A stretch of DNA of 8,160 nucleotides. It comes from a virus (lineage: Duplodnaviria; Heunggongvirae; Uroviricota; Caudoviricetes). The notes beneath the pieces were generated by a model. The model did not search any database. It was not told the DNA's origin and saw only the letters and a program-made list of their open reading frames with translations. Made by a program: the position numbers and the translations under genes. Where the stretch lies: IMG/VR virus record IMGVR_UViG_2671180778_000006. One strand, given 5' to 3'. This document shows, piece by piece, positions 1 through 8,160 of this stretch (its first letter is position 1; each line of letters begins with the position of its first letter).

Positions 1-131
1 TGAAGACGTAAAGCTTCAGTGATCCAGGTCCGGTGTTTCATACGATAGTGTCCATTAAAAATGATGGACATTATTTTTGTAGAGCCGGAGGAAACAGACC
101 AGACGGTTTAAATGAGCCGGTTACGAAAAAA

Positions 132-344
132 ATGGCAATTGTCGATAAAAAGGGTCTGGAGTACATTCCTAATATCGATCGTATGATCCGTGAGAAAGAA
201 TGTCGGGAGCTAACCACTCTTGCGAACAGCACACGCTGGAAGCTGGAGAAGGAAGGAAAATTTCCTAAGCGGATCAAGATTGGTTCCACTGCTGTTGCAT
301 ATCGTCTTTCAGAAGTGCAGGCATGGATTAGGGGAGAGTGGTAA
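132..344 (+). CDS. alpA: AlpA-family (prophage CP4-57 regulatory protein-like) HTH transcriptional regulator
   Basis: The C-terminal 55 residues (MIREKECRELTTLANSTRWKLEKEGKFPKRIKIGSTAVAYRLSEVQAWI) fit the AlpA/Phage_AlpA helix-turn-helix pattern. Start is ambiguous: ATG at 132 has no clear Shine-Dalgarno; the ORF track extends to a GTG at 33. Confidence 0.8.
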   Translation: MAIVDKKGLEYIPNIDRMIREKECRELTTLANSTRWKLEKEGKFPKRIKIGSTAVAYRLSEVQAWIRGEW

Positions 345-363
345 GAATTTAGACAGTGGATGT

Positions 364-390
364 AATCCTATGGGGTAAACCCATAGGATT
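364..390. terminator. Perfect 11-bp stem / 5-nt loop hairpin between convergent genes (possible bidirectional terminator)
   Basis: aatcctatggg (364-374), loop gtaaa, cccataggatt (380-390). It lies between the alpA stop (344) and the stop of the minus-strand 449-aa gene (396). The flanking U-tracts are weak, so terminator function is uncertain. Confidence 0.4.
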
Positions 391-395
391 TGAAA

Positions 396-1745
396 TCACT
401 TAAATTCAAATACGTGCGTAGTTGATGAGATTATATAATTAGGTGGTAAGTATTGAACTATTTCTCCATCTTCTTCAAAAATATGAATAACTCTTGGGAA
501 TAATTCAGGGCGTATAGGATTTAATGCCTTCGGATTATGAAACATGTATATTGCTGTACACCATGGTTCTTGATATGAAGGTGCATTGACAAGAGCAGTA
601 AAAGGCATTGGGGTACAGCCTTCATCAGTTTTAATACCTCTAACGATGGATTTGACATTTTTTTGTTCAATCCCTGCCACTACTCCCATCCTATCAAATT
701 TTGGGATGGTGGCATGTGTCGCAAGTAATATGGCTGAGACATTCTCATTTTTATTAGAGCCGAAAAAATTAGATTGTATACTTCGATTTTCAAATAAATG
801 TTGTTCAATTTTACTTCCAGAATCCATATCTACACCATACAGATAGCTTTGTAGTGCTGGCATTGATATACTCATCGAAAATCTGCGTGAGTAATCGTGT
901 AAAGCAATAATGAAAGGCTTTCCTTTTGTATGATCTAGTTCCCAATAGCATAATTTTAAGGGTTCAGGTTTATGCCTAACTTTCTTTAATAGAGTGCGGG
1001 CAAATTTGAATGGCATTTGTTCTTTTACATATCTCTGAAGATCTTCTACTGCCTCATGATCAAGTATCAATTTCTCGGTAGGTTCCTCTTGTTCTGCAAC
1101 TGTGGCAGCTTCTACAGCAATATCAATGCCATTTTTTGAGATAATATAATCAGGTTGAGCATAATCTCTGCATATTACGAAATCCATTTCGTAGAAAACT
1201 GCGTTTAGATAAAGTTCGAATAAGCGAGAGTTAAATGAAGCACTCTGGAAATCTCTGATGAATATTCCATCAGGATCTTTACACCAATAAGCTAACTCTT
1301 GCATAACAATAAATGCAGGATAGTGTTTGGGTTCCTCAAGTAGCATTCTTAGATAAACGTTTTTTTTATGTTCTGGAACTTTGGCTAGGAATATTGAAAA
1401 TGCCGACTCTGATTCGTCACCCTGTATAAAACAACCGTTCTTGTGTAGTGATAATAGCTCTGGTATGGCTTTTTCCATATCAGTAATTAAATCATCTTTA
1501 GATTCACGGGATACAATTACTTTAATCGCTCTAAATTTTTTATCTAAATCCCTACCTAGAAATATAGCGTTGTAATCATTATCTATTTTACAAAAAACAA
1601 TTGTTGCTAAGATCGTGACATCATCCTTTATAAATTTGAACCAACAGATTTCCTCCGAAAAGGTTTTTACGTATGGTGTACGACCATAGAAAAATACATC
1701 AAATTGTTCTTTACTGATTTCTAGCATTTTGTGACTTGTTGTCAT
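396..1745 (-). CDS. Hypothetical 449-aa protein, family not recognised; candidate effector of a cargo (possibly anti-phage) operon
   Basis: Uninterrupted 1350-nt ORF with ATG start and an upstream AAGGA Shine-Dalgarno at 7-nt spacing. It starts 23 nt downstream of the RHH gene on the same strand. Composition is markedly AT-rich compared with the roughly balanced flanking genes. By eye there is no Walker A, HEPN Rx4-6H, HNH or transmembrane signature. Confidence 0.85.
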   Translation of the reverse strand: MTTSHKMLEISKEQFDVFFYGRTPYVKTFSEEICWFKFIKDDVTILATIVFCKIDNDYNAIFLGRDLDKKFRAIKVIVSRESKDDLITDMEKAIPELLSLHKNGCFIQGDESESAFSIFLAKVPEHKKNVYLRMLLEEPKHYPAFIVMQELAYWCKDPDGIFIRDFQSASFNSRLFELYLNAVFYEMDFVICRDYAQPDYIISKNGIDIAVEAATVAEQEEPTEKLILDHEAVEDLQRYVKEQMPFKFARTLLKKVRHKPEPLKLCYWELDHTKGKPFIIALHDYSRRFSMSISMPALQSYLYGVDMDSGSKIEQHLFENRSIQSNFFGSNKNENVSAILLATHATIPKFDRMGVVAGIEQKNVKSIVRGIKTDEGCTPMPFTALVNAPSYQEPWCTAIYMFHNPKALNPIRPELFPRVIHIFEEDGEIVQYLPPNYIISSTTHVFEFK

Positions 1746-1768
1746 AGAAGAATCCTTTATGCAAATTA

Positions 1769-1963
1769 TCAGCCTTTAGGTGTTATTCCTTGTTTTATTA
1801 GTTCGGCACGAGCCAGTTCTTTTAGCCAGTTACCTAAGCTCATCCCTTCTTTGGCAGCGACATTAACCATTTGTTCTTTTAATTCTGGGTTAATACGGAC
1901 TTGGAATGCTGGTGCTTTACCTGCACCTTTCGGTTGTTTATCACGTTGAATGATAGTTGACAT
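1769..1963 (-). CDS. Ribbon-helix-helix (Arc/MetJ/CopG-like) DNA-binding protein, probable operon regulator
   Basis: 64 aa. FQVRINPELKEQMVNVAAKEGMSLGNWLKELARAEL matches the beta-strand plus two-helix RHH pattern (compare Arc and Mnt repressors). ATG at 1961-1963 on the minus strand with AGGU about 9 nt upstream in the mRNA. First gene of the leftward operon. Confidence 0.7.
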   Translation of the reverse strand: MSTIIQRDKQPKGAGKAPAFQVRINPELKEQMVNVAAKEGMSLGNWLKELARAELIKQGITPKG

Positions 1964-2005
1964 GTGTGTACCTATTGCTTAGTATGATTCTTGATAGGTA
2001 CACAC
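1964..2005 (-). promoter_or_regulatory. Perfect 12-bp inverted repeat (GTGTGTACCTAT, 18-nt spacer, ATAGGTACACAC): candidate operator or RBS-sequestering leader hairpin
   Basis: Left arm 1964-1975 and right arm 1994-2005 are exact reverse complements. The repeat abuts the RHH start codon and contains its Shine-Dalgarno in the transcribed leader. Confidence 0.5.
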
Positions 2006-2023
2006 CTTATCATGTTTTATTGC

Positions 2024-2052
2024 TATATAACAACGCCCTGCAGTGCTCGCAA
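2024..2052 (-). promoter_or_regulatory. Putative sigma70 promoter for the leftward RHH/449-aa operon
   Basis: Read on the minus strand: -35 TTGCGA (plus 2047-2052), 17-nt spacer, -10 TATATA (plus 2024-2029). Each hexamer is only a 4/6 match, so this is weak by-eye evidence. Confidence 0.3.
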
Positions 2053-2298
2053 CACATACAGGGCGTCTAACCACCAACGATAGCAACAGTATCGAGGTAG
2101 CTATGAGAAATCATACCACACACCCGCAAGGGCGGGATTCGCACAACCTGAATAAATACATCTGGCGTTTTATCGCCCTGAGCACCGCACAACCACGCGT
2201 AATACACATCGAGGCCGCCAGCGAACAGGAAGCCCGCCAGCAATCCCCAACTGGCTACGTGATGATATTCGCCGCCCGTATTCGTCAGGAGGTGTGCC

Positions 2299-2484
2299 GT
2301 GCTTAAAACCTTCCGTGTATTTGCCCGAGCTGTTAACCCACTGGGCCACACAATTGGTATCACTCAGAACGTGAAGGCTGTTAATGTTCAGACGGCTATT
2401 GCTGCGGTGAGAAGCGAATCATCAGAATATGGCTTATCACAAGTCATTATTTCAGCAGTGTATGAATTAAAAGAGGTGCATTAA
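2299..2484 (+). CDS. Hypothetical small protein (61 aa), first gene of the rightward replication operon
   Basis: GTG start preceded by a strong AGGAGG Shine-Dalgarno (2287-2292) at 6-nt spacing. Its stop overlaps the next start (TAATG). Confidence 0.5.
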   Translation: MLKTFRVFARAVNPLGHTIGITQNVKAVNVQTAIAAVRSESSEYGLSQVIISAVYELKEVH

Positions 2485-2675
2485 TGCAGGAAATCACATT
2501 ACACGAAGCCGCTGAACGTGCGCACCAGACAGAAATTATTTGCCGCCTTCTTGAGGTATACCCGAACAAAATTACAGATGCTGATATATCCGCGCTGGCG
2601 AGCCTACTGGCGCGCCTTTCGGGAAGTGTCGCTAGTTTCCTGATTGAGGAAGAAAGTAAGCTGGTGGGGGATTAA
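2484..2675 (+). CDS. Hypothetical small protein (63 aa)
   Basis: ATG overlapping the upstream stop; AAGAGGTG Shine-Dalgarno at 2471-2478. Same strand and tight coupling with its neighbours. Confidence 0.5.
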   Translation: MQEITLHEAAERAHQTEIICRLLEVYPNKITDADISALASLLARLSGSVASFLIEEESKLVGD

Positions 2676-2897
2676 ATGAATACAGAACGGGAAGTCTTTT
2701 TTAAATTGTTAGCATGTGCAGAAAGTTCATTAACTTTAAATAATTCAGCAAAAGCAATATTAAATATGTGGCTTGATTGCATAAATGACAATGAAGATGC
2801 AAATATTGCTTATGGCCTGTTGTCACTTATTGATGAATCAGCAGAAAAACTCAATGACGCAATAAATAGTGCCCTGCTATCAAATAAGTCGAGTTAA
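2676..2897 (+). CDS. Hypothetical small protein (73 aa), AT-rich
   Basis: ATG immediately after the upstream TAA; G-rich Shine-Dalgarno upstream. Composition is distinctly more AT-rich than the neighbouring ORFs. Confidence 0.45.
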   Translation: MNTEREVFFKLLACAESSLTLNNSAKAILNMWLDCINDNEDANIAYGLLSLIDESAEKLNDAINSALLSNKSS

Positions 2898-2914
2898 GTC
2901 GAGGAATAAATAAT

Positions 2915-3214
2915 ATGGAAATGAAAAATTCTGGCTTTATTGCCAGCGGCCCCGCTCGGCCTGAATTTATGAACGGCGATATTTACCGCGATAAATACGG
3001 CGGCACGGTAACGATTAAAGGCGTGGCAGAACGGCGCATCACTTACCGCCGTGAGGGGTATAGCTATGACTGCGTGATGCCTGTTTATCAGTTCCGGCGT
3101 GATTTTTCCCTGGTATATGCCGCACCCCGCAGTAAGCCCATCAGCAGGGAAAAAGCGCGGGGAAACATCCAGAAAATGAAAAGCATGATTAACGCATTCA
3201 GGGGCAAAAAATGA
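2915..3214 (+). CDS. Hypothetical protein (99 aa) upstream of the primase
   Basis: ATG with GAGGA Shine-Dalgarno at 2901-2905. Its stop overlaps the primase start (ATGA at 3211-3214), implying translational coupling. Confidence 0.5.
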   Translation: MEMKNSGFIASGPARPEFMNGDIYRDKYGGTVTIKGVAERRITYRREGYSYDCVMPVYQFRRDFSLVYAAPRSKPISREKARGNIQKMKSMINAFRGKK

Positions 3215-4962
3215 AACTGGCACCGAACTTAAAAAAACAGCCACGCGACAGACTGACAGAGGTAATCATCTTTGCAGGTAGTGATGCGTGGAGCCATGCG
3301 AAAGAGTGGCGGGAATGGGCGGGTAAACATATTGCCGCCGACGATGTGCCGCCTGTCGTGCTGGCTGATGAGCAACTGAAAAATATCACCGATTACCGGA
3401 TCATTGATGAAGATCGTCAGTGTGTGCGTGTTTACCGCGCAGGACATATCACAGAGCACAGCATGACGCAGATTGTTACGTTACTGGCTGTGGCTGGAGT
3501 GAAGACCGTACACGAATACGCGGGGATTACTGACACCAGCCCAGTGGATTTATCCGAGCAGTTGCCGCGACTCAAAGAGGAATGCGAGCGTGGGGAAAGT
3601 CTGGTGCTTAATCTTCCGACGAAGCAAAAGGCGCAACTTTCACAGATGGCAGACAGTGAACGTGCACAACTACTTGCCGATCGCTTTGATGGTGTGTGTG
3701 TTCATGCAGAAAGTGAAATCGTCCACGTATGGCGCGGCGGGGTATGGTGTCCGGTCAGCACAATGGAGCTGAGCCGCGAAATGGTGGCGATCTATTCAGA
3801 GCACAGGGCCACGTTCAGCAAACGTGTAATCAATAACGCCGTGGAAGCGTTAAAAGTTATTGCCGACCCCATGGGGGAGCCGTCCGGTGATTTGCTACCG
3901 TTCACTAATGGTGTGCTTAACCTGAAAACGGGGGAATTTTCTCCGCACTCGCCGGAGCACTGGAGCACCACGCACAATGGCATTGAGTACACGCCACCAG
4001 TAGCAGGGGAAAACATCCGCGATAATGCGCCAAATTTCCATAAATGGCTTGAACATGCTGCAAGAAAAGACCCGCGTAAGATGATGCGTATATGTGCCGC
4101 GTTATACATGATTATGGCGAACCGCTACGACTGGCAGATGTTCATTGAGGCCACCGGAGACGGGGGAAGCGGTAAGAGTACATTTACCCATATTGCCACC
4201 CTGCTTGCTGGCAAACAGAACACCGTAAGCGCGGAGATGACATCACTCGATGATGCAGGAGGGCGCGCGCAGGTTGTCGGGAGTCGTCTTATCGTCCTTG
4301 CCGATCAGCCGAAATATACGGGGGAAGGCACGGGCATCAAGAAAATCACGGGAGGCGATCCCGTTGAAATTAACCCGAAATATGAGCAGCGATTCACGAC
4401 GATAATAAGGGCGGTGGTACTGGCAACCAATAACGACCCGATGATCTTTACCGAACGGGCCGGAGGTGTGTCACGCCGTCGGGTGATTTTCCGGTTCGAC
4501 AACATTGTAAGGGAGGACGAAAAAGACAAGGAATTACCGGAAAAGATAGCGGCAGAAATCCCCGTAATTATCCGCCGCTTGCTGGCTAATTTTGCTGCCC
4601 CTGAAAAGGCACGGGCTTTATTACTGGAACAGCGTGACGGTGATGAAGCTCTGGCAATAAAGCAGCAAACGGATCCGGTTGTTGAGCTTTGCGCGGCGCT
4701 GGAGTTTCTGGAGGAAGCTCGTGGGCTAATGATGGGCGGTGGTGGTGACACCGTGAAGTACACGACCAGAAACAGCCTTTACCGTGTCTATATGGCCTTC
4801 ATGGCATACACAGGAAAGGGGAAATGTTTGAGCGTGAATGAGTTCGGAAAGGCTATGAGGTCAGCGGCGAAAGTTTACGGATATGAATATATTACGCGAA
4901 AAGTTAAGGGAGTCACGCAGACCAACGCAACGACTACTGATGATTGCGATGCGTTTTTATAA
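3211..4962 (+). CDS. Phage/plasmid primase-helicase, P4 / D5-like family (satellite pri-rep replication initiator)
   Basis: 583 aa. Walker A GDGGSGKST (4156-4182) and Walker B-like LIVLAD. The LLPFTNGVLNLKTGEFSPHSPEHWST block is typical of the D5-N / P4-type primase C-terminal region. An iteron array follows directly downstream. No primase catalytic motif was recognised in the first ~170 residues. Confidence 0.8.
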   Translation: MKLAPNLKKQPRDRLTEVIIFAGSDAWSHAKEWREWAGKHIAADDVPPVVLADEQLKNITDYRIIDEDRQCVRVYRAGHITEHSMTQIVTLLAVAGVKTVHEYAGITDTSPVDLSEQLPRLKEECERGESLVLNLPTKQKAQLSQMADSERAQLLADRFDGVCVHAESEIVHVWRGGVWCPVSTMELSREMVAIYSEHRATFSKRVINNAVEALKVIADPMGEPSGDLLPFTNGVLNLKTGEFSPHSPEHWSTTHNGIEYTPPVAGENIRDNAPNFHKWLEHAARKDPRKMMRICAALYMIMANRYDWQMFIEATGDGGSGKSTFTHIATLLAGKQNTVSAEMTSLDDAGGRAQVVGSRLIVLADQPKYTGEGTGIKKITGGDPVEINPKYEQRFTTIIRAVVLATNNDPMIFTERAGGVSRRRVIFRFDNIVREDEKDKELPEKIAAEIPVIIRRLLANFAAPEKARALLLEQRDGDEALAIKQQTDPVVELCAALEFLEEARGLMMGGGGDTVKYTTRNSLYRVYMAFMAYTGKGKCLSVNEFGKAMRSAAKVYGYEYITRKVKGVTQTNATTTDDCDAFL

Positions 4963-4975
4963 AAAATGGCAATGG

Positions 4976-5207
4976 TTATCTACCTTGTCTACCTGACTGA
5001 AAGAAAATACTTTTATTTCAATGTATTAATGCAGGTAGATAACTATTTTTCACTGTCTACCTGTTATCTACCTTATCTACCCATTTTTGTAGACAGGTAA
5101 GGAGACGGGTAGAGATGAGGTAGACAGCTATTTGGGGCTGTCTACCTCCCTGAAACCCGCGCCATTACTGGCCTGATAACTAATCAGGTAGACAAGGTAG
5201 ACAAGGT
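4976..5207. repeat. Iteron-type replication origin (about 11 copies of TCTACC / GGTAGA in both orientations, plus an AT-rich stretch)
   Basis: TCTACC at 4979, 4988, 5056, 5067, 5076 and 5141. Reverse-orientation GGTAGA at 5034, 5108, 5119, 5187 and 5196, the last two as a tandem GGTAGACAA pair. AT-rich stretch at 5001-5030. Position immediately 3' of the primase gene. Confidence 0.75.
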
Positions 5208-5251
5208 GGTGGTGCACAAAAAACTTTTTAAACGAGGGGGTAAAAATAAAA

Positions 5252-5509
5252 ATGCACACATCAGGAAAACTGAACAAACATATAAAGCCACATTACCGCG
5301 CCCTTGATATGGCTGAACACTGGCTAAGGGTGGCGATTAAGGCAATAGACCGCAACGCCGGGGAAGGATACGCGAAAGCACATCCCGAACTGATAAGCGC
5401 ATTCATGACAACGGCGGCTGCAAACTTTGCCACGCTGACCGAACGGGAGATTGCTGAAGCGGAGGAAGTGACAACAATCAATATTAAGTCCGGAGAGCAG
5501 GCAGCATGA
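5252..5509 (+). CDS. Hypothetical protein (85 aa), translationally coupled to the SSB-like gene
   Basis: ATG with GAGGGGG upstream. Its stop overlaps the next start (ATGA at 5506-5509). No family recognised. Confidence 0.5.
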   Translation: MHTSGKLNKHIKPHYRALDMAEHWLRVAIKAIDRNAGEGYAKAHPELISAFMTTAAANFATLTEREIAEAEEVTTINIKSGEQAA

Positions 5510-5955
5510 CGGCGCAAATATCAGTTTACGGGCGGTTGGTGGACGACCCGCAGACAAAACAGACCAGCAAGGGCACCCCCATGACGCTGGCGCGTATGGC
5601 GGTATCACTGCCCTGCAGTCAGTCGGATGACGGTCTGGCGACGTTGTGGTTATCTGTCCTGGCGTTTGGCAGACAAGCCGACGCGCTGGCAAAGCATCAC
5701 AAAGGCGAACTCCTGAGCGTGGCGGGTAACATGCAGATGAGCCAGTGGACTGGACAGAACGGCGAAACGCGGCAGGGCTGGCAGGTTATCGCAGACAGCG
5801 TAATCAGTGCGCGATCGGTGCGACCGGGCGGCAAAAAAGGCCAACAGGGGCAGGCTACTGACGCACTGAACAGAGCAAAACAACAGGCAGATCAGCAAGG
5901 AAGCCAGCCACCAGAGGGAGATAATGAGCAATGGGGAGATGATATCCCGTTTTAA
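5506..5955 (+). CDS. Single-stranded DNA-binding protein-like (short OB-fold SSB with C-terminal DDIPF tail)
   Basis: 149 aa. The N-terminal pattern (VYGRLVDDPQ ... WLSVLAFGRQAD ... KGELLSVAGNMQMSQWTGQNGETRQGW) is consistent with the SSB OB fold. A Gly/Gln-rich linker and the terminal GDDIPF match the conserved acidic SSB tip. GGAGAG Shine-Dalgarno upstream. Confidence 0.7.
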   Translation: MTAQISVYGRLVDDPQTKQTSKGTPMTLARMAVSLPCSQSDDGLATLWLSVLAFGRQADALAKHHKGELLSVAGNMQMSQWTGQNGETRQGWQVIADSVISARSVRPGGKKGQQGQATDALNRAKQQADQQGSQPPEGDNEQWGDDIPF

Positions 5956-5973
5956 ATATTGCCAATAAAAAAA

Positions 5974-5997
5974 GCCGGAAAAAATAAATTTTCCGGC
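5974..5997 (-). terminator. Hairpin with a 7-nt U-run on the minus strand (intrinsic terminator oriented leftward)
   Basis: Stem GCCGGAAAA (5974-5982) pairs with TTTTCCGGC (5989-5997), 6-nt loop. An A7 run at 5967-5973 on the plus strand gives a U7 tail in the minus-strand RNA. There is no U-tract on the plus-strand side. Confidence 0.4.
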
Positions 5998-6107
5998 ATG
6001 CTACATAAATCCCGACCAAAGGGAGTGAAGATATTAACACTAATTGTCCGCACTGAAGTTGTCACCCCAAAACTTTATACAACATTGCACTCGGTTGCAT
6101 GTGTTCG

Positions 6108-6136
6108 CATGACAAATATCGGTGATAGCATATATC
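6108..6136 (+). promoter_or_regulatory. Putative sigma70 promoter upstream of the capsid gene
   Basis: -35 ATGACA (6108-6113), 17-nt spacer, -10 TATATC (6131-6136), about 35 nt upstream of the capsid ATG. Weak, by eye only. Confidence 0.25.
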
Positions 6137-6171
6137 CACAATTATTTTTAATGAATGCAAAGAGGATGCGT

Positions 6172-7212
6172 ATGGTTGATTTATATTCGCCTACCCAGCT
6201 TGTACAGGTGGTTAATGCTGTAGATGTACAAAAACAACTAAATGCGTTGTTTACCAGTTTGTTTTTTACTCGCTCGGTAATGTTTGGATCGCGCGATATT
6301 ATTCTTGATACAATCGACGATCCAAATATCCCAATTGCAGCGTTTTGTTCTCCTATGGTGGGTAGTAAAGTTTCACGTGACGAAGGGTACGAATCAAAAA
6401 CAATTCGTCCAGGCTATATGAAGCCGAAAAGCAGCATTGATCCAAATAAGTTAGCTGTGCGCCCTGCTGGTGTATCACCTGAGCAATACAATGCTTTTGG
6501 GGCGCGTAATATTAAAGTTAAACAGGCGATTGTAAATCAAGCTAAAGCTATTCGTGCACGTATTGAATGGCTTGCCGTTCAGGCAATCACAACGGGGAAA
6601 AATATCATTGAGGGCGATGGTATTGAACGTTATGAGCTGGACTGGAATATTAAACCACAAAATATCATCACTCAGTCTGGCGGTACTGAGTGGTCAGGTA
6701 AGGATAAAGAAACTTTTGATCCAAATGATGATATTGAGAGCTACGCAGAATTTAGTGAGGGCGTCACTAATATCATCATTATGGGCGGTAATGTATGGAA
6801 GAAATACCGTTCATTCAGAGCGATAAAAGAGGCTCTGGATACCCGTCGTGGTTCTAATTCCGAACTGGAAACGGCCCTTAAAGACCTTGGTGATTCGGTG
6901 AGTTTTAAAGGATATATGGGCGATGTTGCGATTGTTGTTTACAGCGGGCGTTATACCGACGAGGACGGAACTGAAAAACATTTCCTTGATCCTGATTTGA
7001 TGGTGCTTGGCAATACGGCTCTTCAGGGGATTGTCGCCTATGGCGGTATTCAGGATCCGGAGCTAATCCGAATGGGGCTGACTAAAGCCGAACTTGCACC
7101 GAAAAACTATATTGTGCCTGGTGATCCGGCTATTGAATATGTGCAGACACATTCAGCACCACAGCCAATACCGGCCCGCATCAATCGTTTTGTTACCGTT
7201 CGCATTGGCTAA
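6172..7212 (+). CDS. Major capsid protein, phage lambda gpE-like
   Basis: Near-full-length similarity to lambda gpE as recalled from memory, including ITQSGGTEWS, DTRRGSNSELETA, GDVAIVVYSG and MVLGNT blocks and a matching N-terminus (MVDLYSPTQL against lambda MSMYTTAQLL). Start placed at ATG 6172 with GAGG at 6-nt spacing; the ORF track's upstream extension to 5959 is not supported. Confidence 0.9.
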   Translation: MVDLYSPTQLVQVVNAVDVQKQLNALFTSLFFTRSVMFGSRDIILDTIDDPNIPIAAFCSPMVGSKVSRDEGYESKTIRPGYMKPKSSIDPNKLAVRPAGVSPEQYNAFGARNIKVKQAIVNQAKAIRARIEWLAVQAITTGKNIIEGDGIERYELDWNIKPQNIITQSGGTEWSGKDKETFDPNDDIESYAEFSEGVTNIIIMGGNVWKKYRSFRAIKEALDTRRGSNSELETALKDLGDSVSFKGYMGDVAIVVYSGRYTDEDGTEKHFLDPDLMVLGNTALQGIVAYGGIQDPELIRMGLTKAELAPKNYIVPGDPAIEYVQTHSAPQPIPARINRFVTVRIG

Positions 7213-7221
7213 GGGGGAGCA

Positions 7222-7563
7222 ATGGCTACTCATTACACTGAACTCATGGCTGGCACTGAAGCACTGGTGACTACGCTGGGGATATTTTCAGCTAATAAAG
7301 GGGTAATTCCTGCATTTACGCCACTGATGCAGGAAGATGCAACAGGTGCACTGGTGGTATGGGATGGTTCGAGCGTAGGTAAAGCGGTTTATGTTTCCGC
7401 TGTACAAATCGACACCGCGAAAAAAACACAGGCTCAGGTCTATAAGACAGGTGTCTTAAATGTTGATGCTCTGAACTGGCCTGAGTCTGTAAAAGAACTG
7501 TCAGTAAAGATTGCAGCGTTTGTTGGCTCAGGTATTTCTGTTCAGCCGCTGGCTCGTGTGTAA
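7222..7563 (+). CDS. Head decoration protein, phage lambda gpD-like
   Basis: 113 aa. AFTPLMQEDATGALVVWDGS ... VYKTGVLNVDALNWPE ... AAFVGSGISV aligns with recalled lambda gpD ([20 protein letters not shown] ... FYKSGTFRYEDVLWPE ... TAFAGTAISIV). GGGGGAG Shine-Dalgarno upstream. Confidence 0.8.
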   Translation: MATHYTELMAGTEALVTTLGIFSANKGVIPAFTPLMQEDATGALVVWDGSSVGKAVYVSAVQIDTAKKTQAQVYKTGVLNVDALNWPESVKELSVKIAAFVGSGISVQPLARV

Positions 7564-7574
7564 AGGGGGATACA

Positions 7575-7958
7575 ATGCAAAATGATTACAATGACCTTAA
7601 GCCAATTGCCGAAATGATGTACCCGAATCCAGCTGTAGAGGAATTAAAAGCTATCGCTGACAAAATGTGTTTAAGCGAGCGCCTTGTTGATATGAATCAG
7701 GTGATGGAAATTACAACCCTGAGTCGGCGTACACTGCTAAACCTTGAGGCTAGTGGAGAGTTCCCGGAGCGTGTGCAGGTTACGGAAGGGCGTAAGGCCT
7801 GGTATTTAAGTGAAGTGATCGACTGGATAAATAATATTCCTCGCGCTTCTGAATATTGCCGCGTACCTGTCCCAAAAAAGCCAGATGCGGCGCTATGCCT
7901 CAAGATTGAGCGTGTACGCCGCAATGCACGGGATGGTCGCTATAAGCTGATTGGTTGA
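7575..7958 (+). CDS. AlpA-like HTH domain protein (127 aa); regulator or candidate packaging-specificity factor
   Basis: Residues about 40-95 (MNQVMEITTLSRRTLLNLEASGEFPERVQVTEGRKAWYLSEVIDWI) fit the AlpA-type HTH pattern, with extra N- and C-terminal extensions. AGGGGG Shine-Dalgarno upstream. Sits immediately 5' of the cos site. Confidence 0.6.
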   Translation: MQNDYNDLKPIAEMMYPNPAVEELKAIADKMCLSERLVDMNQVMEITTLSRRTLLNLEASGEFPERVQVTEGRKAWYLSEVIDWINNIPRASEYCRVPVPKKPDAALCLKIERVRRNARDGRYKLIG

Positions 7959-7965
7959 TGAAATT

Positions 7966-8160
7966 AGGGCCCGCTCTGGCTGGCGGGTCCTTTCCGGCGA
8001 TCTGACAGGCTACGGGGCGTCAGGCGCGCGGATTTTCGCTATTTATGAAAATTTTCCGGTTTAAGGCGTTTCCGTTCTTCTTCGTCGTAACTTAATGTTT
8101 TTATTTAAAATACCCCCTGAAAAGAAAGGAAACGACAGGTGCTGAAAGCGAGCTTTTTGG
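7966..8160 (+). other. Lambda-type cos site (cosQ-side flank, cosN at about 8015-8026, cosB R3/I1/R2 region) running off the window end
   Basis: 8027-8160 is nearly identical to my recollection of the lambda left end (CGCGGGTTTTCGCTATTTATGAAAATTTTCCGGTTTAAGGCGTTTCCGTTCTTCTTCGTCATAACTTAATG...GAAAGGAAACGACAGGTGCTGAAAGCGAG). 7971-8014 resembles the lambda right end (...GGGTCCTTTCCGGTGATCCGACAGGTTACG). The 12 nt at the cosN position read GGGCGTCAGGCG against lambda GGGCGGCGACCT. Confidence 0.8.

What the first reader, a model, noticed from the sequence alone, without database searches (positions are those of the whole stretch)
396..2052. AT-rich two-gene cargo operon (RHH regulator + 449-aa protein of unrecognised family) in a satellite variable slot: candidate new anti-phage or abortive-infection system
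The sequence shows a 64-aa ribbon-helix-helix protein followed 23 nt later by a 449-aa ORF, both on the minus strand with good ribosome-binding sites, and much more AT-rich than the flanking alpA and primase modules, which suggests separate acquisition. The operon sits between the AlpA regulator and the replication module. Established knowledge is that phage satellites (P4-like elements, PICIs) carry diverse anti-phage systems in variable cargo slots, often small operons with their own regulator. I could not match the 449-aa protein to any known defence or housekeeping family by eye. The defence role is inference from context and composition only.
Basis: partly seen in the sequence, partly recalled or inferred. 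Interest (0 to 1): 0.85.

Follow-up and report, generated by a model that had tools for sequence, protein, structure and literature searches.

The report
Known PD-T7-1 defence gene in satellite
The "unrecognised" 449-aa protein is PD-T7-1, an anti-phage nuclease already validated experimentally in E. coli in 2022, and it sits behind a small Arc-like regulator in the swappable zone of an already described phage satellite, so the finding is real but not new.

Summary
A 64-aa ribbon-helix-helix (RHH) gene (1769-1963, minus strand) lies 23 nt upstream of a 449-aa ORF (396-1745, minus strand). The ORF is AT-rich (GC 0.345, primase 0.517).

The 449-aa protein is not a new family. It matches the PADLOC PD-T7-1 model end to end (E=1.3e-153). 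PD-T7-1 is a single-gene defence system that Vassallo et al. 2022 validated against T7 and T-even phages and annotated as a PD-(D/E)XK-like nuclease. My structure model (pLDDT 92.8) and the invariant residues E177, D199 and E212 agree with that. No solved structure resembles the whole protein.

The island is a helper-embedded PICI (Tommasini et al. 2023), inserted in a lambdoid prophage's capsid gene. The slot is that paper's "dynamic zone".

The RHH is the slot's Arc-like regulator, not a dedicated partner. Sister islands keep it with a different cargo gene or with none, and PD-T7-1 homologues outside Enterobacterales lack it. An inverted repeat that co-varies with the RHH brackets the -10 of the rightward replication-operon promoter. 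This suggests the RHH represses that promoter while PD-T7-1 is co-transcribed with it, as rexAB is with lambda cI.

Verdict: already known, low interest.

The parts
1..124 (.). Terminal 124 nt of an IS66-family insertion sequence abutting alpA. Not part of the operon.
   Evidence: Window 1-124 matches L005 12218-12341 (the far end of the IS66 tnpA/B/C block) in the opposite orientation to the rest of the window, which is 100% identical to L005 (E. coli CP010238.1) over 125-8160.
123..344 (+). alpA (satellite excisionase/activator), convergent with the cargo gene; left border of the variable slot.
   Evidence: Pfam Phage_AlpA 6.6e-15. Annotated as a 73-aa HTH regulator next to int in sister islands. 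85-96% nt identity to sister islands up to position 341-343, where homology breaks. In this window the first codon is disturbed by the IS junction.
367..391 (.). 11-bp-stem hairpin between the convergent alpA and PD-T7-1 genes; bidirectional terminator-like.
   Evidence: ATCCTATGGGG-taaa-CCCATAGGAT. RNA fold -18.9 / -21.6 kcal/mol, z -5.2 / -5.0, 0 of 200 shuffles as stable. It lies inside the block that moves with the cargo. Function inferred.
396..1745 (-). PD-T7-1: 449-aa single-protein anti-phage defence gene with a central PD-(D/E)XK-like nuclease core (about 167-284) between an N-terminal beta-meander domain (about 1-110) and a C-terminal alpha/beta domain.
1746..1768 (-). 23-nt intergenic spacer carrying the PD-T7-1 Shine-Dalgarno sequence (AAGGA, 7 nt before the ATG).
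   Evidence: Sequence. An SD-like purine run at the same place in the Buttiauxella, Edwardsiella, Enterobacter and Serratia homologues, with spacers of 21-23 nt.
1769..1963 (-). 64-aa Arc-like ribbon-helix-helix regulator (named 'HicB family antitoxin' by NCBI), first gene of the leftward operon.
   Evidence: The family is widespread in Enterobacterales satellites. It is retained with other cargo or no cargo.
1964..2005 (.). Candidate RHH operator: perfect 12-bp inverted repeat GTGTGTACCTAT (1964-1975) / ATAGGTACACAC (1994-2005) with an 18-bp spacer, abutting the RHH start codon.
   Evidence: I3. The arms are conserved while the spacer diverges in Buttiauxella, Enterobacter and E2348/69-type islands. 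Both arms change symmetrically in Edwardsiella together with RHH beta-strand residues. Serratia's divergent RHH has a different palindrome, and YlcI-type islands have a different repeat set. Binding is inferred.
1957..1985 (+). Rightward sigma-70-like promoter TTGACA-17-TAGTAT pointing at the icd-like/primase operon. Its -35 overlaps RHH codons 1-3 and its -10 lies inside the operator spacer.
   Evidence: Promoter scan, 10 of 12 matches. TTGACA and a -10-like hexamer 17 nt downstream are conserved in the other RHH-type islands. Activity not tested.
2004..2012 (-). Candidate leftward promoter for RHH and PD-T7-1: extended -10-like TGaTAAGGT.
   Evidence: Read by eye. The motif CATG-n-TAA(G/T)GT is conserved directly upstream of the operator arm in all RHH-type islands printed. 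The alternative TTGCGA(2052-2047)-17-TATATA(2029-2024) is not conserved. Inferred only.
2033..2066 (+). Conserved leader hairpin (8-bp stem ACGCCCTG/CAGGGCGT, 18-nt loop) upstream of the icd-like gene; right edge of the module that moves with the cargo.
   Evidence: I6; 3 pairs with compensatory changes. No Rfam family matches. The loop is found in both orientations among sister islands.
2103..2306 (+). icd-like gene, first gene of the rightward (replication) operon; context only, not part of the cargo.
   Evidence: RefSeq annotation 'host cell division inhibitor Icd-like protein' in sister islands. PHROG 6196, 3.4e-42.

Best explanation
The 449-aa gene is PD-T7-1, a known single-protein anti-phage defence gene. 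Its conserved centre is a PD-(D/E)XK-type nuclease fold (E177, P198-D199, E212, probably K255), flanked by an N-terminal domain absent from the related PD-T7-5 and by a C-terminal domain. These flanking domains presumably sense infection or gate the nuclease, which then cuts phage or host nucleic acid (inferred). The gene rides as the second cistron of the leftward operon in the dynamic zone of a helper-embedded PICI satellite that sits inside a lambdoid prophage's capsid gene. The first cistron is an Arc-like RHH protein that belongs to the satellite's control region. It most likely binds the inverted repeat at 1964-2005, and by doing so represses the rightward icd/primase promoter and autoregulates its own operon (inferred). 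PD-T7-1 would then be made constitutively while the satellite is quiescent, as rexAB is made with cI in lambda. Shown here: the family identity, the fold, the element type, the swap boundaries and the operator co-variation. Taken from the literature: anti-phage activity. Inferred: the nuclease substrate, RHH binding and the promoters.
Against: I could not retrieve RCQ85672.1, so identity with the validated allele is inferred from length, HMM score and coinciding HHpred coordinates. The canonical lysine of (D/E)xK is absent (position 214 is A/V/T across the family). Whether PD-T7-1 acts by abortive infection or direct immunity, and what it cuts, is not stated in any text I could read. In every Enterobacterales example (5 genera, PICI and non-PICI contexts) PD-T7-1 keeps an RHH 21-23 nt upstream, so a functional dependence on the RHH is not excluded. 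The original 'single-gene' clone extended 302 nt to one side of the ORF, and if that side is upstream it contained the RHH gene. The inverted repeat could also act as an RNA hairpin (-16.6 kcal/mol, z -4.4) rather than as a protein operator. No promoter was tested.
Confidence: 0.85

Rival explanations
1. The two genes form a type II toxin-antitoxin or abortive-infection pair. PD-T7-1 is a nuclease toxin held in check by the RHH 'HicB-family antitoxin', and infection releases the toxin.
For: NCBI names the RHH 'toxin-antitoxin system HicB family antitoxin'. The layout is antitoxin-like: a small RHH gene first, a 23-nt gap, then a nuclease. The pair stays together in all Enterobacterales contexts, including a non-PICI one. 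Some fold hits are RHH antitoxins such as DinJ, CopA and AtaR.
Against: There is no HicA. The Pfam HicB hit is below its cut-off (20.3 against 21 bits). The RHH domain occupies the C-terminus (residues 19-60), so there is no C-terminal toxin-binding extension. The same RHH occurs with an unrelated 241-aa gene and with no downstream gene at all. PD-T7-1 homologues at 32-53% identity stand alone or follow a reverse transcriptase. Its best structural neighbour is the Arc repressor.
Confidence: 0.08
2. The RHH is a dedicated transcriptional regulator of the defence gene, acquired with it as one two-gene cargo cassette, and has no role in satellite control.
For: Relative to YlcI/YnfO-type sister islands, the whole block 342-2150/2265 (cargo, RHH, control region) is replaced. 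The block 318-2091 is found as a unit next to TrbL/FRG genes outside a PICI. RHH GC (0.41) is below the backbone value.
Against: The RHH and everything to its right is 97% identical in islands where only the cargo differs. The RHH family is far more common than PD-T7-1 (at least 1000 contigs for one member) and occurs with an empty slot. Its candidate operator brackets the -10 of the promoter that drives the satellite's icd/primase operon, and that promoter's -35 is built from the RHH's own first codons.
Confidence: 0.2
3. PD-T7-1 serves the satellite's own life cycle, for example by cutting helper or competitor DNA to favour satellite packaging, rather than protecting the host cell.
For: It sits in a satellite embedded in its helper prophage. 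PICIs are known to interfere with helpers (background in PMC10111431).
Against: Cloned alone in K-12, without satellite or helper, it protects against unrelated lytic phages. Homologues lie in chromosomal defence neighbourhoods: Gabija-like genes in Halomonas, RloB/AAA_21 in Methylocystis, PIN-TPR-GreABC in Serratia. Most sister islands lack it: 2 of 5426 complete E. coli genomes carry the operon, against 79 with the >=95% identical primase backbone.
Confidence: 0.05

Closest known systems
PD-T7-1 (Vassallo et al. 2022, Nat Microbiol; PADLOC PDLC04073)
   Same: Full-length HMM match (E=1.3e-153). Same 449-aa length. The same weak PD-(D/E)XK/Hjc signal at residues 171-220. E. coli origin in a prophage/satellite neighbourhood.
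   Different: Nothing detectable. This is the same system. The only open point is whether the allele is identical to ECOR46 RCQ85672.1, and whether the published 'single-gene' clone also carried the RHH ORF.
PD-T7-5 (Vassallo et al. 2022; PADLOC PDLC04110) and PHROG 8571
   Same: Share the nuclease core and the C-terminal domain (residues 118-424 match PD-T7-5 at 7e-39; residues 111-444 match PHROG 8571 at 7.5e-90).
   Different: They lack the roughly 110-residue N-terminal beta-meander domain with invariant E32, D55, D57 and D66 that marks PD-T7-1.
Helper-embedded PICIs, E:Phage_cap_E site group (Tommasini, Mageeney and Williams 2023)
   Same: int-alpA, dynamic zone, primase/SSB zone, and a late zone with its own capsid, decoration and small-terminase genes. 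Inserted in and co-oriented with a lambdoid major capsid gene.
   Different: That paper describes the dynamic zone as Bro-N proteins and CI-like immunity RNAs and says almost nothing about defence. Here the zone holds an oppositely oriented RHH plus defence-gene operon, and no C4/isrK RNA is detected.
Lambda cI-rexAB, and the P2/P4 defence hotspots (Rousset et al. 2022)
   Same: A defence gene carried by a temperate element or satellite, in a swappable slot, and transcribed with or next to the element's maintenance regulator, so that it is expressed in the quiescent state.
   Different: Unrelated proteins. The link between the RHH and satellite repression is inferred here, not shown.
P22 Arc repressor and other RHH regulators
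   Same: A strand-helix-helix domain. Arc is the top structural neighbour (27-31% identity, prob 0.93-0.97). A palindromic candidate operator overlaps a promoter.
   Different: It has an 18-residue basic N-terminal tail. The half-sites are 30 bp apart centre to centre, which suggests two dimers. Binding has not been demonstrated.

Membership tests
PD-T7-1 defence system | Full-length sequence match to the curated PD-T7-1 profile | tested here: met
   PADLOC PDLC04073: 510 bits, E=1.3e-153, residues 7-447 on HMM positions 1-448 of 452.
PD-T7-1 defence system | Same size and domain signal as the validated ECOR46 protein RCQ85672.1 | tested here: met
   The ORF at 2183-3533 is the same length as 396-1745. 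The published HHpred hits at residues 171-220 coincide with the invariant E177/D199/E212 block. The sequence itself was not retrievable.
PD-T7-1 defence system | Reduces plating of T7 and T-even phages when expressed from its native promoter | not testable with these tools
   Reported for the ECOR46 allele (PMC9519451) and for a NILS69 allele.
PD-T7-1 defence system | A single gene is sufficient | tested here: inconclusive
   Homologues in four non-enteric genera have no RHH. All enteric ones do, and the original clone extended 302 nt to one side of the ORF, enough to hold the RHH (218 nt) if that side is upstream.
PD-(D/E)XK nuclease superfamily | [quoted passage not shown] | tested here: met
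PD-(D/E)XK nuclease superfamily | Conserved acidic residues on helix 1, at the start of strand 2 (PD) and on strand 3 | tested here: met
   E177, P198-D199 and E212 are invariant in 43 sequences down to 31% identity.
PD-(D/E)XK nuclease superfamily | Lysine two residues after the strand-3 acidic residue ((D/E)xK) | tested here: inconclusive
   Position 214 is A, V or T in the family, so the canonical lysine is absent. Invariant K255 on the following helix may substitute, as relocated lysines do in some family members (own knowledge).
PD-(D/E)XK nuclease superfamily | Metal-dependent nuclease activity | not testable with these tools
   No biochemical data found in the 16 papers that mention PD-T7-1.
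Ribbon-helix-helix (Arc/MetJ) DNA-binding proteins | Short strand followed by two helices; nearest structures are RHH proteins | tested here: met
   Helices 26-38 and 43-57 at pLDDT >=90 after an extended FQVRI segment. The top fold hits are almost all RHH proteins (Arc, DinJ, AmrZ, NikA, CopA, ParG), though none reaches E <= 0.001 because of the small size. PHROG Arc-like repressor 1.2e-5.
Ribbon-helix-helix (Arc/MetJ) DNA-binding proteins | Binds a repeated or palindromic operator | not testable with these tools
   Indirect support only: an inverted repeat co-varying with the protein.
HicAB type II toxin-antitoxin | Adjacent HicA toxin gene | tested here: not met
   No HicA in the window or in any sister locus. 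The neighbour is PD-T7-1, a different gene, or nothing.
HicAB type II toxin-antitoxin | Match to the HicB family above the curated cut-off | tested here: not met
   PF05534 scores 20.3 bits against a cut-off of 21, covering only the RHH part. All NCBIfam antitoxin models are far below their cut-offs.
Helper-embedded PICI (HE-PICI) | [quoted passage not shown] | tested here: met
   Loci 100% or 99.7% identical to the window have int-alpA next to an 82-91-aa capsid N-terminal fragment, with the capsid C-terminal fragment at the far end. In the window's own best match (L005) an IS66 element separates alpA from the int side.
Helper-embedded PICI (HE-PICI) | Four ordered zones: integration, dynamic, replication, late | tested here: met
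   alpA / PD-T7-1 and RHH / icd-DUF4222-primase-SSB / capsid-decoration-AlpA2, compared with PMC10111431.

The most novel reading that the evidence does not exclude
The RHH and its inverted-repeat operator are the satellite's protein master repressor, an Stl-like switch that replaces the CI-RNA immunity proposed for other HE-PICIs. This immunity module is exchanged between islands together with whatever defence gene is parked behind it. Defence output would then be hard-wired to satellite quiescence and would shut off or change on induction. The neighbouring leader hairpin, whose 18-nt loop is found in both orientations in otherwise identical islands, could add a heritable flip to this control region.
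Probability: 0.25. Interest if true: 0.45.

Novelty: already known. Interest (0 to 1): 0.15.

Why it matters
It matters little as a discovery. The gene is a catalogued, experimentally validated defence system, and the island type and its dynamic zone are published. It also yields three modest, usable points. (1) PD-T7-1's natural expression unit in enterobacteria includes an Arc-like RHH gene and operator that the original clone may have carried unnoticed, which matters for anyone dissecting its mechanism. (2) The exact swap boundaries of this HE-PICI hotspot are now defined: cargo only at 344-1772, and the whole module at about 318/342 to 2091/2265. (3) The same slot in sister islands holds 241-aa and 178-aa proteins with no match in Pfam, PHROGs or PADLOC. 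Those are better candidates for new defence genes than the one flagged.

Tried and rejected
- Pfam and NCBIfam gave nothing for the 449-aa protein.
- Sequence and profile searches of the PDB gave nothing at E<=10.
- Foldseek against the PDB gave no hit at E<=1e-3, and the top Rad50/retron rows have TM 0.1 and are noise.
- The AFDB library was not available, so no family-level structural neighbours could be named.
- Rfam at E<=1 on the window and at gathering threshold on three sister loci found no C4/isrK/CI-like RNA. I therefore could not tie the leader hairpin to P4/P1-type immunity RNAs.
- The toxin-antitoxin reading suggested by the 'HicB' name was considered and rejected for the reasons given under rivals.
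- A leftward promoter read by eye as TTGCGA-17-TATATA (2052-2024) was dropped as the main candidate because its -10 is not conserved in the 84%-identical module. The consensus scan found no leftward promoter at all.
- I did not find, in any text available, whether PD-T7-1 is classed as abortive infection or direct immunity. That is shown only in a figure.
- I could not fetch the ECOR46 contig to prove allele identity or the orientation of the cloned fragment.
Full report
**1. Observation**

The window holds a 449-aa ORF at 396-1745 and a 64-aa ORF at 1769-1963, both on the minus strand and 23 nt apart.

The larger gene is markedly AT-rich:

| Feature | GC |
|---|---|
| 449-aa gene | 0.345 |
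| RHH gene | 0.410 |
| alpA | 0.436 |
| primase | 0.517 |
| whole window | 0.452 |

The 449-aa gene has a good Shine-Dalgarno sequence (AAGGA, 7 nt before the ATG). The RHH gene has only a weak one, buried in an inverted-repeat arm.

Window 125-8160 is 100% identical to E. coli CP010238.1. Window 1-124 is the end of an IS66-family element, so the ORF listed as 33-344 over-extends alpA.

**2. What the 449-aa protein is**

Pfam and NCBIfam find nothing. The PADLOC library matches the PD-T7-1 model over its whole length (510 bits, E=1.3e-153) and, more weakly, PD-T7-5 over residues 118-424.

PD-T7-1 is one of the 21 systems recovered by functional selection from E. coli isolates by Vassallo et al. 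2022 (PMC9519451):
- It came from strain ECOR46 (RCQ85672.1, ORF 2183-3533, the same length as here) and was labelled "Nuclease".
- Cloned with its native promoter in MG1655, it protected against T7 and more strongly against T-even phages.
- A later study found that another allele protects against a Teseptimavirus and shrinks T7 plaques.
- The authors' HHpred table gives only weak hits (Hjc 80%, PDDEXK_5 55%, FokI_C, Vsr, RmuC), all at residues 171-220.

My own analysis agrees with that annotation:
- 177 homologues were found, with identity falling to 31% among the listed hits. They come from Gamma-, Beta- and Alphaproteobacteria.
- In a 43-sequence alignment, E177, P198-D199, E212-A213 and K255 are invariant.
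- The AlphaFold model is confident (pLDDT 92.8, pTM 0.92). [quoted passage not shown]
- Foldseek and two sequence searches of the PDB find no relative of the whole protein.
- The canonical lysine of the (D/E)xK motif is missing. Position 214 is A, V or T.
- The N-terminal ~110 residues carry invariant E32, D55, D57 and D66. This domain is absent from PD-T7-5 and PHROG 8571.

Reviews list PD-T7-1 as a single-gene PD-(D/E)XK system of unknown mechanism. So the protein belongs to a known, validated defence family whose mechanism is still open.

**3. What the island is**

The exact protein occurs on 187 contigs. In every E. coli context examined the layout is the same:

- N-terminal fragment of the prophage capsid gene
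- int, alpA
- PD-T7-1 and RHH on the opposite strand
- icd-like gene and small ORFs
- DUF4222, primase, SSB
- the island's own capsid, decoration and AlpA-like genes, then a Nu1-like small terminase
- a second variable slot
- C-terminal fragment of the prophage capsid gene

This is the helper-embedded PICI family (E:Phage_cap_E site) described by Tommasini, Mageeney and Williams 2023 (PMC10111431). That paper defines four zones: integration, a "dynamic" Bro zone, replication and late. The finding lies in the dynamic zone. The paper barely mentions defence.

**4. Is the slot variable, and what is the unit of exchange?**

The primase backbone is at least 95% identical in 79 of 5426 complete E. 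coli genomes. The PD-T7-1 operon is in 2.

Sister islands carry different content in the slot:

| Island type | Slot content | Where homology to the window breaks |
|---|---|---|
| RHH-type sister islands | RHH (89% aa identity) + unrelated 241-aa gene | 344-1772, just above the RHH stop codon (1769-1771) |
| YlcI/YnfO-type | 100-aa YlcI/YnfO regulator + 178-aa gene | 342 to 2150/2265 (cargo, regulator, control region, 5' end of icd) |
| Portal-gene island | BRO-N gene | not mapped |
| Empty slot (e.g. E. coli E2348/69) | RHH followed after 55 nt by alpA | no cargo |

In the other direction, the block 318-2091 (terminator, PD-T7-1, RHH, operator, leader hairpin) occurs at 80% nt identity next to TrbL, FRG and DUF3892 genes, outside any PICI.

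All PD-T7-1 homologues from Enterobacterales keep a 59-64-aa RHH 21-23 nt upstream. This covers E. coli, Buttiauxella, Edwardsiella, Enterobacter and Serratia, in islands with different integration sites and replication modules. Homologues in Pseudomonas (behind a reverse transcriptase), Burkholderia, Halomonas (beside Gabija-like genes) and Methylocystis (near RloB/AAA_21) have none.

Exchange is therefore nested: the cargo gene alone, or the cargo with its regulator and control region. The RHH is a platform shared by several cargos, not an obligate PD-T7-1 subunit.

**5. The RHH and the control region**

The RHH model shows two well-predicted helices after an extended FQVRI segment. P22 Arc is its best structural neighbour, and PHROG calls it an Arc-like repressor. 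The NCBI name "HicB family antitoxin" rests on a sub-threshold Pfam hit, and there is no HicA.

A perfect 12-bp inverted repeat abuts the RHH start codon: 1964-1975 and 1994-2005, with an 18-bp spacer. It brackets the -10 of a rightward promoter TTGACA-17-TAGTAT at 1957-1985. That promoter's -35 is encoded by RHH codons 1-3.

Comparison across islands supports a cognate pair:
- The arms are conserved while the spacer drifts.
- In Edwardsiella both arms change symmetrically, together with RHH beta-strand residues.
- Serratia's divergent RHH has a different palindrome.
- YlcI-type islands have a different repeat set.

This fits a cognate repressor-operator pair controlling the icd/primase operon and probably its own transcript. 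It is inference only, and an RNA-hairpin role is also possible. A conserved extended -10-like motif (TGnTAAGGT, 2012-2004) is the best candidate for the leftward promoter.

**6. Mechanism, with status of each step**

- PD-T7-1 is a defence protein: shown in the literature.
- It has a PD-(D/E)XK-like catalytic core: shown by fold and conservation.
- It cuts nucleic acid after sensing infection through its flanking domains: inferred.
- It is co-transcribed with the satellite's RHH regulator and so expressed during quiescence, as rexAB is with lambda cI: inferred from the anatomy.

The rivals (toxin-antitoxin pair, dedicated regulator, satellite life-cycle function) are weighed in their own sections.

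**7. Comparison and verdict**

This is the already known PD-T7-1 system in an already described satellite type. Residual value lies in the RHH/operator platform, the defined swap boundaries, the unknown cargos in sister islands, and a curious loop inversion in the leader hairpin. Interest is low.

Noticed in passing
window 2033-2066; L030-L035 at about 4393-4430: The conserved leader hairpin upstream of the icd-like gene has an 18-nt loop that is an exact reverse complement between otherwise identical islands: TATGTGTTGCGAGCACTA in L031, L032 and L034, and TAGTGCTCGCAACACATA in L030, L033 and L035, from six E. coli genomes. The Edwardsiella island also has the flipped form. The stem shows 3 compensatory pairs, and no Rfam family matches. 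This could be a recurrent hairpin-loop inversion or a switch.
   Followed up: partly
L002 8232-8957 (-) and L003 8232-8957 (-); L021 3629-4165 (-): Sister islands carry a 241-aa protein (WP_021559947.1 / WP_396004002.1) or a 178-aa protein (WP_001588495.1) in the same slot. Neither has a significant match in Pfam, PHROGs or PADLOC. These are the genuinely unrecognised candidates for defence cargo in this hotspot.
   Followed up: partly
L001 10083-22112; also L002-L004, L006-L012, L021-L023: The whole island sits inside the lambda-E-like major capsid gene of a lambdoid prophage, with an N-terminal fragment of about 82-91 aa on one side and a C-terminal fragment of about 263 aa on the other, and it brings its own capsid and decoration genes. 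Related islands sit in a portal gene (L024, L025). This is already described as HE-PICIs (PMC10111431).
   Followed up: yes
window 1-124: The end of an IS66-family element abuts the alpA start. In the 100%-identical genome CP010238.1 the same IS lies at the same junction in the opposite orientation, and no integrase gene is called beyond it. The island copy may therefore be immobilised.
   Followed up: partly
Right of window 7958; L001 20268-21140, L003 16852-17613, L023 11549-13265, L005 1-884: A second variable slot lies at the far end of the late zone. It holds an Mrr-like restriction endonuclease, an AbiJ-like protein (2.4e-22), a HEPN + DUF262 pair, or a DUF2971 protein, depending on the island.
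   Followed up: partly
L017 2748-5410: In Pseudomonas fluorescens HK44 the PD-T7-1 homologue (53% identity) overlaps by 4 nt an upstream reverse transcriptase gene (PADLOC generic RT 3e-44, RT_UG17 3.6e-35). This suggests an RT-plus-nuclease operon.
   Followed up: no
L036-L039, L041-L045 at 4374-6144: The module terminator-PD-T7-1-RHH-operator-hairpin (equivalent to window 318-2091, 80.5% nt identity) sits between a Nu1 fragment with FRG and DUF3892 genes and HTH_3 and TrbL genes. It has been captured outside a PICI, apparently in a conjugative element.
   Followed up: partly
L001 12001-13083; L004 9001-10349: In the only two complete RefSeq E. coli genomes with the operon (SCU-316, MLI104K2), PD-T7-1 is annotated as a shortened or split ORF (360 aa; 316 + 131 aa) although the DNA is 99.7-99.8% identical. 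This points to frameshifts or sequencing errors.
   Followed up: no
window 5959-7212: The 417-aa TTG ORF over-extends the island's capsid gene. Sister annotations and gene calls give 346 aa, about 6172-7212.
   Followed up: no
L021 4830-4950: Islands with the YlcI/YnfO-type regulator carry four or more copies of TGTATATC(A/T)CAC in the divergent control region instead of the GTGTGTACCTAT inverted repeat. Operator type tracks regulator type.
   Followed up: partly
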